Part shown: piece after piece, positions 39,789-61,400 of the stretch | Layout: every line of letters starts with the position of its first letter | Numbering within the stretch: the stretch's first letter is position 1 | Source: Escherichia phage vB_EcoM-E33 | DNA: 64,000 bases | Reading direction: 5' to 3' (one strand) | Sequence record: OL780484.1 | The notes under the pieces: model-generated | Databases searched by the model: none | Told to the model about the DNA's origin: nothing | Seen by the model: only the letters and a program-made list of their open reading frames with translations | Position numbers and translations under genes: made by a program

Positions 39789-40595
39789 CTATAGCCAGGA
39801 ACCGTAGATAACACCTGTATTATGCCAAGTAGGAGAACTTCCAGCAACAGCAGCTCCTGCGCCGCCGCCAGCGCCGACTTTTAGAACTTTACCACCATCA
39901 TTCCATGCGTTCTGGCCTGCGGCGCCAGCATCACCGCCATGACCTGAGTGGGCGTTACCATAATTGTATCCACCGCCAGGGCTTTCATAAGAAGCACCAC
40001 CGCCAGAGTATCCACCGCCGCCACCAGGGCCAAATGGACGTCCACCACCACCACCGATATCTTGCCAGTTAGCACCTGAGTGAGGACGATACGCAATGCC
40101 GCCACCGCCGCCGCCACCGCCACAGATAACCCCACCATTATTAATTCTTAAACGACCACCAATATCATTTACAATACAAGTTCCACCCCATTGGCCGTTG
40201 CCATCGCCACCCGAGTGGGTCCAACCACCTTGACCACCTCGGCCCCATATATGAACCCCACCACCAATATTCAATTGAACATATTCGTTTGGAGTATCCC
40301 CATACATAAAGAACAATGGAACATCACGGGTATAAGATACTAATGTACCTGTAAGATTAAACACAATAGGCGCACTACCAGCTTCAAAGCAACGGTCGCG
40401 GAACCACTGCCCATTAAAGTTATGGTCCCCACCTAAAGTATGAATAACTTCAACAGACCGGCCGTTCATATTACTCATCCAAAATGGGACACCCATTCTT
40501 AATCTTACAGCGGCTCCTGCCATCCAAGGGTCTCCTGTCTGCGCCCTTGCAGAAGTTCCTATCCACGGTCCTGCTACTGCCATATAAACCTCCAA
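39789..40595 (-). CDS. 38: gp38 tail-fiber tip adhesin (T2-type, Gly-rich motifs)
   Basis: 268 aa with multiple polyglycine stretches (GGGGGGGG, GGGGG) separating short variable segments; directly downstream of gene 37. Confidence 0.85.
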
Positions 40596-40609
40596 GGGGC
40601 CGAAGCCCC
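40596..40609 (-). other. ggggc-UUCG-gcccc hairpin between gene 37 stop and gene 38 SD
   Basis: Read on - strand: …GAGGGGCUUCGGCCCCUUGGAGGUUUAUAUG. Confidence 0.5.
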
Positions 40610-40614
40610 TCTTA

Positions 40615-58582: not shown

Positions 58583-58635
58583 TAAAATCTGATTATAATT
58601 GACTCATGGATGAGTCACTAACAAATGAGAATAAC

Positions 58636-59814
58636 ATGTCTACAGTTTTTAATACCACCCCAGTTGATGTTTTAGTCGAACCGATGTTCTTTGGTTCAGG
58701 ATTGGGTATTGCTCGTTATGATATCCAACGCCATAAAGTATTCGAAGAGCTTTGTGAGAAGCAGTTGAGTTTTTTCTGGCGTCCAGAGGAAGTTAACTTG
58801 ATGATGGATGCTGCCCAGTTTAATAAGCTTCCACAATTCCAGCAAAATATTTTTACCAATAATCTGAAGTATCAATCACTTCTGGATAGTATCCAAGGAC
58901 GTGCTCCTTCTGCTGCACTTCAAGCCTTGATTTCAGACCCTAGCCTTGATACATGGGTGGCTACATGGACCTTTAGTGAGACTATTCACTCTCGTTCATA
59001 TACCCATATCATGCGTAACCTCTATACAGACCCGTCAAAGGTATTTGATGAAATTCTGTTAGATGACGCTATTATGAAACGTGCTGAATCTATTGGTCGT
59101 TATTACGACGACGTTATTGAGAAAACTCGCTATTGGCAGAATGCTAAAGCTGATATCGAATACCAAAAAGAAATTAATGCAGACGAAGACGATATTGAAG
59201 ATGCTATTGAGCATGAGATGTATTGGAAGCGTGAGCTAATGAAATCCCTTTACCTTTGCCTTCATGTAATCAACGCATTGGAAGCTATTCGTTTTTATGT
59301 ATCTTTCGCATGCACCTTTAACTTCCATAAAAACATGGAAATCATGGAAGGTAATGCTAAGATTATGAAGTTCATTGCACGTGATGAACAGCTTCACCTT
59401 AAAGGTACTCAGTACATTATTCGTCAACTCCAACTTGGTACTGACGGTGACGAATGGGTTAAAATTGCTCAAGAGTGTGAACAAGAAGCAGTTGATATTT
59501 TCATGGAAGTTAACCGTCAAGAAAAAGAATGGGCTGCTCACCTGTTCAAAGATGGTACTTGCCCTGGATTAAATACTCAGAACATGGGTGCTTTTGTCGA
59601 TTACCTGACAGTTTCTCGTATGAAGCAATGTGGCTTACCGTGTCCTATTACTGATGCTCCTGCCCGCCATCCTTATCCTTGGATTCGCGAATACCTGAAC
59701 TCTGATGCTGTACAGGCTGCTCCTCAGGAAGTGGAAATAAGTTCTTACCTTGTAGCACAAATTGATAACGATGTCGATGAAAAAGTAATGGCATCGTACA
59801 AGAAATATTTTTAA
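58636..59814 (+). CDS. nrdB: Ribonucleotide reductase small subunit NrdB (uninterrupted, no intron)
   Basis: MSTVFNTTPVDVLVEPMFFGSGLGIARYDIQRH… matches T4 NrdB; start at ATG 58636 by homology (ORF track begins 58606). Confidence 0.9.
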   Translation: MSTVFNTTPVDVLVEPMFFGSGLGIARYDIQRHKVFEELCEKQLSFFWRPEEVNLMMDAAQFNKLPQFQQNIFTNNLKYQSLLDSIQGRAPSAALQALISDPSLDTWVATWTFSETIHSRSYTHIMRNLYTDPSKVFDEILLDDAIMKRAESIGRYYDDVIEKTRYWQNAKADIEYQKEINADEDDIEDAIEHEMYWKRELMKSLYLCLHVINALEAIRFYVSFACTFNFHKNMEIMEGNAKIMKFIARDEQLHLKGTQYIIRQLQLGTDGDEWVKIAQECEQEAVDIFMEVNRQEKEWAAHLFKDGTCPGLNTQNMGAFVDYLTVSRMKQCGLPCPITDAPARHPYPWIREYLNSDAVQAAPQEVEISSYLVAQIDNDVDEKVMASYKKYF

Positions 59815-59819
59815 GGAAT

Positions 59820-59833
59820 GGGGCTTCGGCCCC
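59820..59833 (+). other. ggggc-UUCG-gcccc hairpin between SD-like AAGGA and denA start codon
   Basis: Hairpin lies between AAGGA (59814-59818) and ATG 59842; folding would shorten the effective SD-AUG spacing. Confidence 0.4.
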
Positions 59834-59841
59834 TTATTGCT

Positions 59842-60255
59842 ATGAAAGAAATCGCAGACGAATTTAGCTTTATCAAGTACGTCACCCTAGAACTCCAAGA
59901 TGACGCCACCATAGCTCCACTCACAGTACCAAATAAACAAAATGTCATATATGCTATAGCGGTTGATGATATACTAGTCTACGTCGGGAAGACTAAAAAT
60001 CTTCGTAAGCGCATCAACTACTACCGAACCGCTATTAATCGTAAGGACCAAACGTCGGATTCGACTAAGTCCATTCTGATTCATGAAGCATTAATGGCAG
60101 GTAAAAAGGTGGAGTTCTATGCACGGCAGTGCTTTAATCTGTCGATGACTAACGAACTTGGAACTATGTCAGTTGAGACCATGTCTCTTGAAGAGCCAAT
60201 GTTCATAAAGAAATTTAATCCACCTTGGAATACCCAACATAGGATAAAGCAATGA
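59842..60255 (+). CDS. denA: Endonuclease II DenA (GIY-YIG family)
   Basis: MKEIADEFSFIKY…VIYAIAVDDILVYVGKTKNLRKRINYYRTAINRK… matches T4 EndoII; GIY…YIG-like motif. Confidence 0.85.
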   Translation: MKEIADEFSFIKYVTLELQDDATIAPLTVPNKQNVIYAIAVDDILVYVGKTKNLRKRINYYRTAINRKDQTSDSTKSILIHEALMAGKKVEFYARQCFNLSMTNELGTMSVETMSLEEPMFIKKFNPPWNTQHRIKQ

Positions 60256-61400
60256 TTGAATTATATGATAACTTGATGGCCCTGGTTAAAAACTCGACTA
60301 AATCTAAGTTCTTCTTTAAAGACTTTCAGAGTGCTCTAGGAGTCAACTATCGCATCTTTAGTTATAACTACGCATCATACAGTGATTGGTTGGAAGACGG
60401 CGCACTAGAGTGCCGAGGCATTATGTTTGAAATGGACGAGAAAGGTCCTGTACGTATTGCCGCTCGTCCTATGCAAAAGTTCTTTAACCTCGACGAAAAC
60501 CCTATGACTATCGGTCTGGATTTGTCGCCAGAAAATATCGACCTCGTAATGGCTAAGGAAGATGGTTCTCTGATTTCTACATTCATGGACCGACAGTATC
60601 TTTCTGTTAAATCTAAAGGCTCTATCCATTCATCAATGGTGCATGATTCTTTACGGTTCCTTCGTCTCCCTGAGAACGAGGCTTTTGCCGCACGTCTAGA
60701 AGAAATCACCAAAGCTGGGTATACCTGCAACCTTGAATATGTTGCACCTACCAACCGTATCGTGCTGGCTTACCAAGAAACAAATCTCATCCTGTTGAAC
60801 GTTCGTAATAATGAAACCGGTGAATATATTCCATATGCGGAATTGTTTAAGGACGGCGCACTGCGTAAGCATTTGGTTGAAAGCTATGAGCTCGCTGAGG
60901 GCGATTTCGTAGAAAACATCCGTAAGCAGGAAGGCATTGAAGGTTTCATCTTTGTACTGAAAGATGGTACGTTCTTTAAACTCAAAACCGCCTGGTACAG
61001 TGCACTGCATCATACCAAAGATTCCATTAACAACAACGAACGTTTGTTTGAAGTTGTAGTGGCTGGTGGAACTGATGACCTTCGTGGTCTGTTCAGTACA
61101 GATTCCTTTGCTATCGAGAAAATCGATGCCTTTGAACGCATCCATTTAGATTACCTAGAACAATCATTAGCCTTGTTAGAAGCAGCTTACTCTCAACTCA
61201 AAGGTCGCGACCGTAAAGACTATGCCGTTACTGGACAGCTAATCCTTAAGGACTTCCCAGGGTTGTTCTCTATTCTTATGCAGGCGTACGTAGGCGGTAT
61301 TAATTATGATACGGTCATGGACCAGATTAACTCTGTGTTCTTGAAAAATCATAAGGCCCAAATCCCTGAAAAATATTTGAAAGAAATTGTGGTAGAGTAG
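60252..61400 (+). CDS. 63: RNA ligase 1 / tail fiber attachment protein gp63
   Basis: 382 aa; …YRIFSYNYASYSDWL…ALECRGIMFEMDE…LTKEDGSL… matches T4 Rnl1 incl. ligase motif I K-x-D-G. Confidence 0.93.
   Translation: MIELYDNLMALVKNSTKSKFFFKDFQSALGVNYRIFSYNYASYSDWLEDGALECRGIMFEMDEKGPVRIAARPMQKFFNLDENPMTIGLDLSPENIDLVMAKEDGSLISTFMDRQYLSVKSKGSIHSSMVHDSLRFLRLPENEAFAARLEEITKAGYTCNLEYVAPTNRIVLAYQETNLILLNVRNNETGEYIPYAELFKDGALRKHLVESYELAEGDFVENIRKQEGIEGFIFVLKDGTFFKLKTAWYSALHHTKDSINNNERLFEVVVAGGTDDLRGLFSTDSFAIEKIDAFERIHLDYLEQSLALLEAAYSQLKGRDRKDYAVTGQLILKDFPGLFSILMQAYVGGINYDTVMDQINSVFLKNHKAQIPEKYLKEIVVE

What the first reader, a model, noticed from the sequence alone, without database searches (positions are those of the whole stretch)
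59814..59844. Stable hairpin inserted between the Shine-Dalgarno-like sequence and the denA start codon
AAGGA (59814-59818) is 23 nt from the homology-supported ATG at 59842, but the intervening ggggcUUCGgcccc hairpin would bring them within functional distance if folded. This is the same trick known for T4 genes 38 and 25. Alternatively ATG 59818 is used, adding 8 residues.
Basis: partly seen in the sequence, partly recalled or inferred. Interest (0 to 1): 0.4.

Follow-up and report, generated by a model that had tools for sequence, protein, structure and literature searches.

The report
Hairpin-split ribosome binding site of denA
The start of the phage nuclease gene denA is separated from its ribosome-docking sequence by a very stable RNA hairpin. 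This layout is conserved across many T4-like phages and matches two known T4 cases, so it is a probable third example of a known trick and suggests the reference annotation starts the gene eight codons too early.

Summary
The window is a Dhakavirus, a T4-type phage 99.9% identical to QL01. The nrdB stop is UAA at 59812-14. An AAGGA Shine-Dalgarno (SD) sequence at 59813-17 overlaps it. A GGGGC-UUCG-GCCCC hairpin follows at 59820-33, then an 8-nt U-rich tail with no SD, then the denA AUG at 59842.

- **Conservation.** The same layout occurs in 27 distinct nrdB-denA junctions from several genera. Four of the six stem pairs show compensatory changes.
- **Start codon.** The upstream in-frame start (ATG 59818) exists in only three lineages. 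Spacer lengths often break the reading frame, so AUG 59842 is the conserved start.
- **Spacing.** With the hairpin looped out, the SD-to-AUG spacing returns to the range of ordinary genes in this phage.
- **Genome scan.** A scan for this layout in the whole T4 genome finds three real gene starts: gene 38, gene 25 (the two known split sites) and denA.

Best reading (about 0.6): a hairpin-bridged SD of the gene 38/25 type. The hairpin possibly also attenuates transcription or stabilises nrdB mRNA. Nothing has been tested experimentally. I class it as a new member of a known kind, of moderate interest. It also implies that the T4 RefSeq, JS10 and QL01 denA starts are 8 codons too long.

The parts
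59812..59814 (+). nrdB stop codon UAA
   Evidence: ORF 58606..59814. nrdB is annotated here in QL01 and JS10.
59813..59817 (+). Shine-Dalgarno sequence AAGGA, overlapping the nrdB stop codon
   Evidence: Duplex with the 16S 3' end is -6.1 kcal/mol, the median for genes of this phage. An AGG core lies 0-4 nt 5' of the hairpin in 25 of 27 distinct junctions. UAAGGAA serves as a normal SD at other genes of this phage.
59818..59820 (+). Upstream in-frame ATG, the long-form start used in the JS10 and QL01 annotations; probably not used
   Evidence: There is zero spacing to the SD, and its G is the first stem base. An in-frame start at -24 occurs only in Dhakavirus (ATG), Tequatrovirus (GTG) and L040 (GTG). 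It is absent elsewhere, and L011 has an in-frame TGA.
59820..59833 (+). Hairpin GGGGC-UUCG-GCCCC: 5 G-C pairs with an extra-stable cUUCGg tetraloop
   Evidence: Free energy -9.6 kcal/mol. Pair probabilities 0.97-1.0. Covariation: 95.5% of cells paired, 4 of 6 pairs with double changes, 0 of 500 shuffles as high. RNAalifold predicts the same helix with no extension.
59834..59841 (+). U-rich, SD-free tail UUAUUGCU between the hairpin and the AUG
   Evidence: No anti-SD pairing (+2.2 kcal/mol). Tail length is 6-10 nt in all lineages with the split layout. 5 of its 8 bases are U, which is why the terminator scan flags the hairpin.
59842..60255 (+). denA (endonuclease II, GIY-YIG family), short form of 137 aa starting MKEIADEF
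   Evidence: Matches T4 EndoII in PDB 2WSH at E = 2e-66; the alignment starts at this Met. The N-terminus is conserved across 11 lineages. Literature residue numbers G49, R57 and E118 fit the short form.
60252..61400 (+). rnlA (RNA ligase 1). Its start overlaps the denA stop as ATGA, so it depends on transcription reading through the hairpin
   Evidence: No late-promoter motif TATAAATA and no good sigma-70-type site lie between the nrdB start and the rnlA end on the + strand.

Best explanation
denA is translated from AUG 59842 through a split, hairpin-bridged ribosome binding site.

The SD AAGGA (59813-17) overlaps the nrdB stop codon and lies 24 nt from the AUG. That is too far to work on a linear mRNA. 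The cUUCGg hairpin (59820-33) folds essentially always and loops out. This leaves 2 + 8 unpaired nucleotides between the SD and the AUG. A 30S subunit held on the SD can then place the AUG in the P site. The subunit may be newly bound or may remain after terminating on nrdB.

The hairpin also blocks the nearby ATG 59818. It probably has a second job for the upstream gene, as a weak transcription attenuator or a 3' stabiliser of nrdAB mRNA. The split arrangement would be how the phage accommodates such a hairpin in a tight gene junction.

Shown here: the anatomy, the stability, the conservation and covariation, the uniqueness of the layout, and the identity of the conserved start codon. Inferred: that the SD is used, that folding is needed for initiation, and the second job.
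For: 1. **Anatomy and stability.**
2. **Conservation.** 51 loci give 27 distinct junctions. All show UAA-GG(A), a 5-7 bp tetraloop hairpin, a 6-10 nt SD-free tail and AUG. The named records include Dhakavirus, Tequatrovirus, Gaprivervirus, Moonvirus, Jiaodavirus and Yersinia phage TG1.
3. **Covariation.** 4 of 6 stem pairs have double changes, 95.5% of cells are paired, and no shuffle of 500 scores as high. Sliding the partners collapses the score. RNAalifold finds the same helix and nothing else.
4. **Spacing.** The hairpin-excluded AGG-to-AUG distance is 6-14 nt (mostly 8-11; 11 in the window). Among 48 ordinary genes of the same phage the mode is 8 and the range 4-11 for all but one of the 35 with a detectable AGG.
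5. **Contrast within the window.** Four other hairpins that sit just 5' of a gene all have a normal SD after the hairpin. denA has none.
6. **Annotators found no site.** Two genomes that annotate ribosome binding sites (Metamorpho, Moon) list one for the next gene but none for denA.
7. **Scan with positive controls.** In the whole T4 genome the layout scan returns 5 hits. The three at real gene starts are gene 38, gene 25 and denA. The earlier, slightly stricter version of the scan finds only denA in the 64-kb window.
8. **Side-by-side geometry.**
   - T4 gene 25: AGG, 1 nt, 7 bp stem with 4-nt loop, 8 nt, AUG.
   - T4 gene 38: UAAGGAGAGGGGCUUCGGCCCUUCUAAAUAUG.
   - T4 denA: AGG, 2 nt, 6 bp stem with 4-nt loop, 7 nt, AUG.
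   - Window denA: AGG, 3 nt, 5 bp stem with 4-nt loop, 8 nt, AUG.
9. **Literature.** The Uzan and Miller review states that genes 38 and 25 work this way and that destabilising mutations lower initiation (PMC3014915).
10. **Read-through is required.** No promoter candidate lies between nrdB and rnlA, so the hairpin cannot be an efficient terminator.
Against: - There is no experimental datum for denA: no N-terminal sequence, ribosome profiling or reporter data were found.
- The hairpin plus U-rich tail is flagged as terminator-like. One Tequatrovirus record annotates it as a terminator.
- Many terminators of this phage begin with AAGG, so a purine-rich 5' flank is not unusual here.
- In T4, SP18-like phages and L044, weak G-U and A-U pairs could extend the helix into the SD.
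- In short contexts the predicted fold of the window pairs the SD region with the AUG region; the SD is unpaired with probability only 0.23-0.34.
- About one in five annotated genes of this phage has no good SD at all, so SD-independent or coupled initiation is possible.
- Yersinia phage fHe-Yen9-01 does without the hairpin, using an ATGA overlap.
- The lineage L042/43 has only a weak upstream SD.
Confidence: 0.6

Rival explanations
1. The hairpin exists for the upstream gene. It would be an intrinsic terminator or attenuator, or a 3' stabiliser, at the end of the nrdA-nrdB message. AAGGA would be incidental. denA would be translated at a low level without an SD, or by ribosomes that terminate at the nrdB UAA and reinitiate 27 nt downstream.
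For: - The scan flags it as terminator-like, and the G9062 record annotates it as a terminator.
- cUUCGg hairpins with U-runs are the standard terminator form in this window.
- The tail is U-rich in most lineages, with 4-7 U in 8 nt.
- Krischvirus phages have a terminator-like hairpin upstream of denA followed by an ordinary SD.
- fHe-Yen9-01 couples denA to nrdB through an ATGA overlap with no SD.
- A weak terminator inside the same T4 nrd region is documented for mobE (PMC2790892).
- About 20% of genes in this phage lack a good SD.
Against: - The window's stem is the shortest of the 13 UUCG hairpins, and only two U directly follow it.
- L011/12 and L042/43 have poor U-tracts yet keep the layout.
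- denA and rnlA have no promoter of their own, so read-through must be common.
- This reading does not explain why the AGG core sits 0-4 nt before the helix in 25 of 27 junctions, or why the tail stays 6-10 nt and SD-free.
- It does not explain why the same scan picks out exactly the two proven split sites in T4.
- It is compatible with a dual role, so it excludes the best explanation only in its strict form.
Confidence: 0.27
2. denA starts at ATG 59818 (GTG in T4), as annotated in T4 RefSeq, JS10 and QL01. This would give a protein 8 residues longer, with the hairpin lying inside the coding sequence.
For: - The reading frame is open from 59818.
- T4 NC_000866.4 annotates denA 137517..137951, starting at GTG.
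- JS10 and QL01 annotate the long form.
- An in-frame start at -24 exists in three lineages.
Against: - No in-frame start exists in most lineages.
- Spacer length is not a multiple of 3 in 10 of 27 junctions, and L011 has an in-frame TGA.
- The 8 extra residues differ between the lineages that have them (MGLRPLIA in the window against VGRKAHFI read from the T4 GTG).
- The SD abuts the ATG with zero spacing, and a -9.6 kcal/mol hairpin begins within the start codon.
- EndoII biochemistry and crystal structure 2WSH use MHHHHHH plus the short form, and published residue numbers fit it.
- G9062, SP18, Metamorpho and Moon annotate the short form.
Confidence: 0.05
3. The helix extends into the SD and AUG regions and represses denA translation. 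It would open only when a ribosome terminating on nrdB melts it, a classic coupling by unmasking.
For: - The predicted fold of 61-101 nt contexts pairs UUUUUAAGG.AAU with AUU.GC.AUGAAAG around the core hairpin.
- T4 can form GGAG:UUUU wobble pairs.
- EndoII is a host-DNA nuclease, so low expression is plausible.
Against: - The extension is not conserved. RNAalifold on 22 junctions keeps only the 6-pair core.
- The extra pairs are weak A-U and G-U pairs, and they change with the context folded.
- The whole-region z-score is only -1.8.
Confidence: 0.08

Closest known systems
Phage T4 gene 38 split ribosome binding site (gene 37-38 junction)
   Same: The layout matches element for element. The SD overlaps the stop codon of the upstream gene (gcaUAAGGAG). 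A G+C-rich C(UUCG)G hairpin follows, then a short A/U-rich tail without an SD, then AUG (read directly). According to the review, the linear spacing of 22 nt is reduced to 5 nt by folding (PMC3014915). The same scan detects both sites.
   Different: - The junction and the genes differ (tail-fibre genes, late expression).
- The gene 38 helix can reach 8 pairs and take in part of the SD; its tail is 4-6 nt against 8 nt here.
- The hairpin-excluded spacing is about 10 nt here against 5 nt there.
- In the window phage itself, the 37-38 junction is not split: its SD follows the hairpin.
Phage T4 gene 25 split ribosome binding site (gene 26-25 junction; Nivinskas 1999; Malys and Nivinskas 2009)
   Same: The geometry is almost identical: AGG, 1 nt, 7 bp stem with 4-nt loop, 8 nt, AUG. 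The window denA has AGG, 3 nt, 5 bp stem with 4-nt loop, 8 nt, AUG. The review gives 27 nt reduced to 11 nt, against 24 nt reduced to 10 nt here. In both cases the arrangement is conserved among close T-even relatives and absent in distant ones.
   Different: - The gene 25 hairpin is A/U-rich (-6.4 kcal/mol, AGUU loop) and lies inside the gene 26 coding sequence, with a UAAUG stop/start overlap.
- The denA hairpin is all G-C (-9.6 kcal/mol), has a UUCG loop, and lies in a non-coding spacer after the upstream stop.
- Gene 25 has mutational and DMS-probing support. denA has none.
Rho-independent terminators and cUUCGg intercistronic hairpins of T4-type phages (Tuerk et al. 1988, as recalled in PMC4371310)
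   Same: It shares the G+C-rich stem, the UUCG loop with a C-G closing pair and a U-rich 3' side. It is one of 13 such hairpins in the window and is flagged by the terminator scan.
   Different: - It has the shortest stem and no run of 3 or more U.
- It is followed after 8 nt by a start codon, with no promoter and no SD in between.
- The other hairpins are followed either by U-runs and early-promoter-like boxes or by an ordinary SD.

Membership tests
Hairpin-bridged (split) Shine-Dalgarno site, T4 gene 38/25 type | An SD complementary to the 16S rRNA 3' end lies too far upstream of the start codon to act on linear mRNA (more than about 15 nt) | tested here: met
   AAGGA at 59813-17 has a duplex energy of -6.1 kcal/mol, and 24 nt separate it from AUG 59842. 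The canonical AGG-to-AUG distance in this phage is 4-11 nt in all but one case.
Hairpin-bridged (split) Shine-Dalgarno site, T4 gene 38/25 type | A stable local stem-loop lies wholly between the SD and the start codon | tested here: met
   The hairpin spans 59820-59833, has a free energy of -9.6 kcal/mol and pair probabilities of 0.97-1.0.
Hairpin-bridged (split) Shine-Dalgarno site, T4 gene 38/25 type | With the hairpin looped out, the spacing falls in the functional range (5-11 nt in the known cases) | tested here: met
   2 + 8 = 10 nt from AAGGA, or 11 nt from the AGG core. Across lineages the value is 6-14 nt, mostly 8-11. The review gives 5 and 11 nt for genes 38 and 25.
Hairpin-bridged (split) Shine-Dalgarno site, T4 gene 38/25 type | No alternative SD lies at normal distance from the start codon | tested here: met
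   Tail duplex energy is +2.2 kcal/mol in the window and -0.1 or weaker in all split-layout junctions. Metamorpho and Moon annotate no ribosome binding site for denA.
Hairpin-bridged (split) Shine-Dalgarno site, T4 gene 38/25 type | The structure is conserved among relatives, with compensatory base changes | tested here: met
   22 aligned junctions: 95.5% of cells paired, 4 of 6 pairs with double changes, 0 of 500 shuffles as high. RNAalifold gives the same helix.
Hairpin-bridged (split) Shine-Dalgarno site, T4 gene 38/25 type | The distal AUG is the codon actually used for initiation | tested here: inconclusive
   The evidence is indirect only. The AUG and the MK(E/D)IA N-terminus are conserved. 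The upstream start is not conserved and frames are broken. Biochemistry uses the short form. No native N-terminal data were found.
Hairpin-bridged (split) Shine-Dalgarno site, T4 gene 38/25 type | Stem-destabilising mutations lower translation and compensatory mutations restore it | not testable with these tools
   This needs reporter fusions or toeprinting. It was done for gene 25 but not for denA in any paper found.
Rho-independent (intrinsic) transcription terminator | A G+C-rich stem-loop is followed directly by a U-tract | tested here: inconclusive
   The stem criterion is met. The tail UUAUUGCU has 5 U in 8 nt but only 2 adjacent to the stem. The simple scan flags it. The U-tract is poor in L011/12 and L042/43.
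Rho-independent (intrinsic) transcription terminator | Downstream genes are served by their own promoter, so the transcription unit ends here | tested here: not met
   No TATAAATA motif and no good sigma-70-type site lie between the nrdB start and the rnlA end on the + strand. Only 8 nt separate the hairpin from the denA AUG. MotA-dependent middle promoters were not modelled.
Rho-independent (intrinsic) transcription terminator | Transcript 3' ends map to the U-tract | not testable with these tools
   No 3'-end data were available.
Translational coupling by overlapping stop and start codons (ATGA or TAATG) | The stop of the upstream gene overlaps or abuts the start of the downstream gene | tested here: not met
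   27 nt separate the UAA from the AUG in the window. An ATGA overlap occurs only in Yersinia phage fHe-Yen9-01.

The most novel reading that the evidence does not exclude
The unit 'UAAGGA(G), cUUCGg hairpin, short U-rich tail, AUG' may be a bifunctional and possibly portable intercistronic cassette. It occurs with near-identical sequence at two unrelated junctions: gene 37-38 in T4 and nrdB-denA in other genera. It would end or stabilise the upstream message. At the same time it would make downstream initiation depend on the hairpin being folded. Every ribosome terminating on the upstream gene melts the hairpin and stretches the SD-AUG distance to 24 nt. Downstream translation would then be inversely coupled to upstream translation, and also sensitive to temperature or helicases.
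Probability: 0.12. Interest if true: 0.55.

Novelty: new member of a known kind. Interest (0 to 1): 0.4.

Why it matters
- **A third case.** It would add a third, widely conserved example to the split Shine-Dalgarno sites. The only review held here lists gene 38 and gene 25. The new case sits in an early or middle gene, at a junction that many genera share. That gives a natural series of stem variants for testing how a 30S subunit accommodates a looped-out helix.
- **Annotation.** It argues that denA in T4 RefSeq, JS10, QL01 and similar records starts 8 codons too early. Gene callers that use a linear SD model will systematically pick the wrong start at such junctions.
- **Expression level.** It suggests how a host-DNA nuclease is kept at a set level relative to the abundant ribonucleotide reductase encoded just upstream.

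Tried and rejected
- **Rfam.** A search of 59600-60000 at E up to 10 gave one meaningless sub-threshold hit (SCARNA4, 19 bits against a gathering score of 60).
- **Larger structure.** I looked for a conserved structure including the SD and AUG. The single-sequence fold suggests one, but RNAalifold on 22 junctions does not keep it, so I rejected it as conserved.
- **Literature on denA.** Searches for a described denA split site, denA N-terminus, T4 ribosome profiling or T4 3'-end maps found nothing relevant in the held library.
- **Papers not held.** The T4 genome review (PMC150520) and Tseng et al. 1990 (PMC526816) are not held. An older mention of this hairpin cannot be excluded.
- **Aeromonas phages.** Their denA loci have a different upstream gene and no hairpin, so they say nothing about the junction.
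- **Linear versus hairpin-excluded spacing.** I tried to separate the two models by comparing them. Both distances are nearly constant across lineages, so this does not discriminate.
- **Other split sites in the window.** None were found.
Full report
**What the window is.** The region matches Escherichia phage QL01 at 99.9% and other Dhakavirus phages (JS10, IME08, WG01) at 95-99%. The local gene order is nrdA, nrdB (ORF ending at 59814), denA and rnlA (60252-61400), all on the + strand. The denA product matches T4 endonuclease II (PDB 2WSH) at E = 2e-66.

**The observation.** The sequence reads UUU-UAA-GGAAU-GGGGC-UUCG-GCCCC-UUAUUGCU-AUG. The features are:
- nrdB stop: 59812-14
- in-frame ATG: 59818-20
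- stem arms: 59820-24 and 59829-33
- loop UUCG: 59825-28
- 8-nt tail: 59834-41
- AUG: 59842

24 nt separate AAGGA from the AUG. The hairpin has a free energy of -9.6 kcal/mol. It forms with probability 0.97-1.0 in 61-, 101- and 181-nt contexts. Folding the whole 71-nt region is unremarkable (z = -1.8). G+C-flanked CUUCGG occurs 6 times in the window against 0.47 expected. The window holds 13 UUCG-loop hairpins with at least 5 perfect pairs. So the hairpin is real and belongs to a class that this phage uses on purpose.

**Comparative evidence.** Two scans of IMG/VR with DenA, plus GenBank records, gave 51 loci with 27 distinct junctions over -40 to +12.

Almost all share the same layout: nrdB stop, GG(A), a 5-7 bp tetraloop hairpin, a 6-10 nt tail without an SD, then AUG. 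The hairpins differ in sequence:
- GGGGC/GCCCC in the window
- UGGGCC-GCAA-GGCCCA in T4
- AGGGC/GCCCU in SP18-like phages
- GGGAGAC/GUCUCCC in L014
- GGGAG-CUUGA-CUCCC in Yersinia phage TG1

On an alignment of 22 junctions, 95.5% of cells form standard pairs. Four of the six pairs show changes on both sides, with 23 such cells against 7.1 expected. No shuffle of 500 reaches the observed score, and sliding the partners collapses it. RNAalifold independently predicts exactly this helix and no extension into the SD or AUG.

There are two exceptions:
- Yersinia phage fHe-Yen9-01 has nrdB and denA overlapping as ATGA, with no hairpin. Its homology to its relatives begins exactly at the denA ATG.
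- Krischvirus phages have a terminator-like hairpin followed by an ordinary SD (GAGGAAAGGA) and a different upstream gene.

Aeromonas phages have a different upstream gene and no hairpin.

**Which start codon.** Several lines favour AUG 59842.
- An in-frame start 24 nt upstream exists only in Dhakavirus (ATG), Tequatrovirus (GTG) and one other lineage (GTG).
- The stop-to-AUG distance is not a multiple of three in 10 of 27 junctions, and L011 has an in-frame TGA.
- The DenA N-terminus MK(E/D)IA-E(F/Y)SFIKY is conserved from the downstream AUG.
- ATG 59818 abuts the SD with zero spacing, and its G is the first base of the stem.
- EndoII biochemistry uses MHHHHHH fused to the short form (PMC2764454). 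The 143-residue PDB chain aligns from its residue 8. Published residue numbers G49, R57 and E118 coincide with invariant columns in short-form numbering.

AUG 59842 is therefore the conserved start. T4 RefSeq NC_000866.4 annotates denA from the GTG (137517..137951), and JS10 and QL01 annotate the long form. G9062, SP18, Metamorpho and Moon annotate the short form.

**Is AAGGA the ribosome binding site?**
- Its duplex with the 16S 3' end is -6.1 kcal/mol, exactly the median of 49 annotated genes of QL01. UAAGGAA is used as an ordinary SD elsewhere in this phage.
- The tail has no anti-SD complementarity (+2.2 kcal/mol).
- An AGG core lies 0-4 nt before the helix in 25 of 27 junctions.
- With the hairpin excluded, the AGG-to-AUG distance is 6-14 nt (mostly 8-11; 11 in the window). 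Of 48 ordinary genes, 35 have a detectable AGG; their mode is 8 nt, and all but one fall within 4-11 nt.
- Four other hairpins in the window that sit just 5' of a gene all have the SD after the hairpin. One of them is this phage's own 37-38 junction.
- Genomes that annotate ribosome binding sites list none for denA.

**Comparison with the known cases.** The Uzan and Miller review states that T4 genes 38 and 25 have an SD brought to functional distance by an intervening structure. The spacing goes from 22 to 5 nt for gene 38 and from 27 to 11 nt for gene 25, and destabilising mutations lower initiation. The review names only these two genes (PMC3014915).

I read both junctions directly:
- Gene 25: AAGAGG-C-[CUCAAAG-AGUU-CUUUGAG]-UUACUAUA-AUG.
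- Gene 38: gcaUAAGGAGAGGGGCUUCGGCCCUUCUAAAUAUG. This has the same layout as denA, including the SD overlapping the upstream stop and the cUUCGg loop.

I then ran a scan with these criteria: an SD within 8 nt 5' of a hairpin of -4 kcal/mol or better, an SD-free tail of 3-11 nt, and an ATG or GTG opening an ORF of at least 40 codons. Over the complete T4 genome, both strands, it returns five hits. Three are real gene starts: gene 38, gene 25 and denA. The other two are artefacts. One is a hairpin followed by the true SD of frd.2, and the other is an ATG internal to nrdC.6 (checked). An earlier, slightly stricter version of the scan (hairpin at -6 kcal/mol or better, ORF of at least 50 codons) finds only denA in the 64-kb window.

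**The terminator question.** The simple scan flags the hairpin as terminator-like, and one Tequatrovirus record annotates it so.

Several points argue against an efficient terminator:
- The window's stem is the shortest of its class, and only two U follow it directly.
- U-tracts are poor in some lineages that keep the layout.
- No late-promoter motif TATAAATA and no good sigma-70-type site lie between the nrdB start and the end of rnlA. The denA and rnlA genes overlap as ATGA.

Transcription must therefore read through the hairpin often. A partial attenuator or mRNA-stabiliser role is compatible with the split site and may be the reason the hairpin is there. A weak terminator elsewhere in the T4 nrd region is documented (PMC2790892).

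**Verdict.** The most likely mechanism (about 0.6) is a hairpin-bridged SD driving initiation at AUG 59842, with a probable second role for the hairpin. The rivals are:
- the hairpin serves only the upstream gene, with SD-independent or reinitiation-based denA translation (about 0.27);
- a repressive extended helix opened by nrdB termination (about 0.08);
- the long-form start (about 0.05).

No paper in the held library describes this for denA. The main T4 genome review and older nrdB papers are not held, so prior notice cannot be excluded. I class it as a new member of a known kind, of moderate interest. It gives a concrete annotation correction and a clean set of experiments.

Noticed in passing
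L005 2428-2452 (T4 NC_000866.4 137927-137951); L001 and L004 position 619: T4 RefSeq annotates denA from a GTG three bases after the nrdB stop, 8 codons longer than the form used in EndoII biochemistry. JS10 and QL01 likewise use the upstream ATG. G9062, SP18, Metamorpho and Moon use the short form. The comparative data favour the short form.
   Followed up: yes
window 40581-40610, - strand: This phage's own gene 37-38 junction (T2-type adhesin gp38) has an AGGGGC-UUCG-GCCCCU hairpin followed by a normal SD (UGGAGGUUUAU-AUG). It is not split, unlike the gene 38 junction of T4.
   Followed up: partly
T4 159618-159651 (L056 2619-2652) compared with L025 569-603: The T4 37-38 junction TAAGGAGAGGGGCTTCGGCCCTTCTAAATATG and the nrdB-denA junction of the L025 group, TAAGGAGAGGGCCTTCGGGCCCTTCTGTTATG, are nearly identical over about 32 nt although the flanking genes are unrelated. 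This could be convergence under the same constraints or a shared cassette.
   Followed up: no
L028 560-610 (Yersinia phage fHe-Yen9-01): nrdB and denA overlap as ATGA with no spacer, SD or hairpin. Similarity to the related phages TG1 and phiR1-RT begins exactly at the denA ATG, and the nrdB 3' end resembles Dhakavirus-like sequences. This looks like a recombination joint at the gene boundary.
   Followed up: partly
window 496, 11433, 16321, 25601, 27699, 31494, 34526, 36331, 53132 (+ strand); 40610, 44674, 45654 (- strand): There are twelve further cUUCGg-loop hairpins. About eight have stems beginning AAGG, run into U-tracts and are followed by GTTTAC-type early-promoter-like boxes (terminator-promoter pairs). 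Four sit directly 5' of a normal SD and start codon.
   Followed up: partly
window 58606 versus 58636: The longest nrdB ORF starts at 58606 (402 aa). QL01 annotates the start 30 nt downstream (392 aa, MSTVFN...). The SD at the annotated start is weak (-2.7 kcal/mol).
   Followed up: no
T4 146544 (- strand), upstream of frd.2: The layout scan hit a hairpin, AGGGGCU-AUCA-AGCCCCU, followed by AUUAAA-AUGAGGAAA. This ATG lies 15 nt upstream of the annotated frd.2 start, and the GAGGAAA after it is the SD of that start. I treated it as a false positive, but the upstream ATG is in frame.
   Followed up: partly
T4 denA junction (L005 2453-2456) and the L025, L044 and L045 junctions: In T4 and some other lineages the split SD reads GGAG, the motif cut by the T4 RegB endoribonuclease according to the T4 regB annotation. 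The window phage has GGAA instead. Whether RegB inactivates denA mRNA in T4 was not examined.
   Followed up: no
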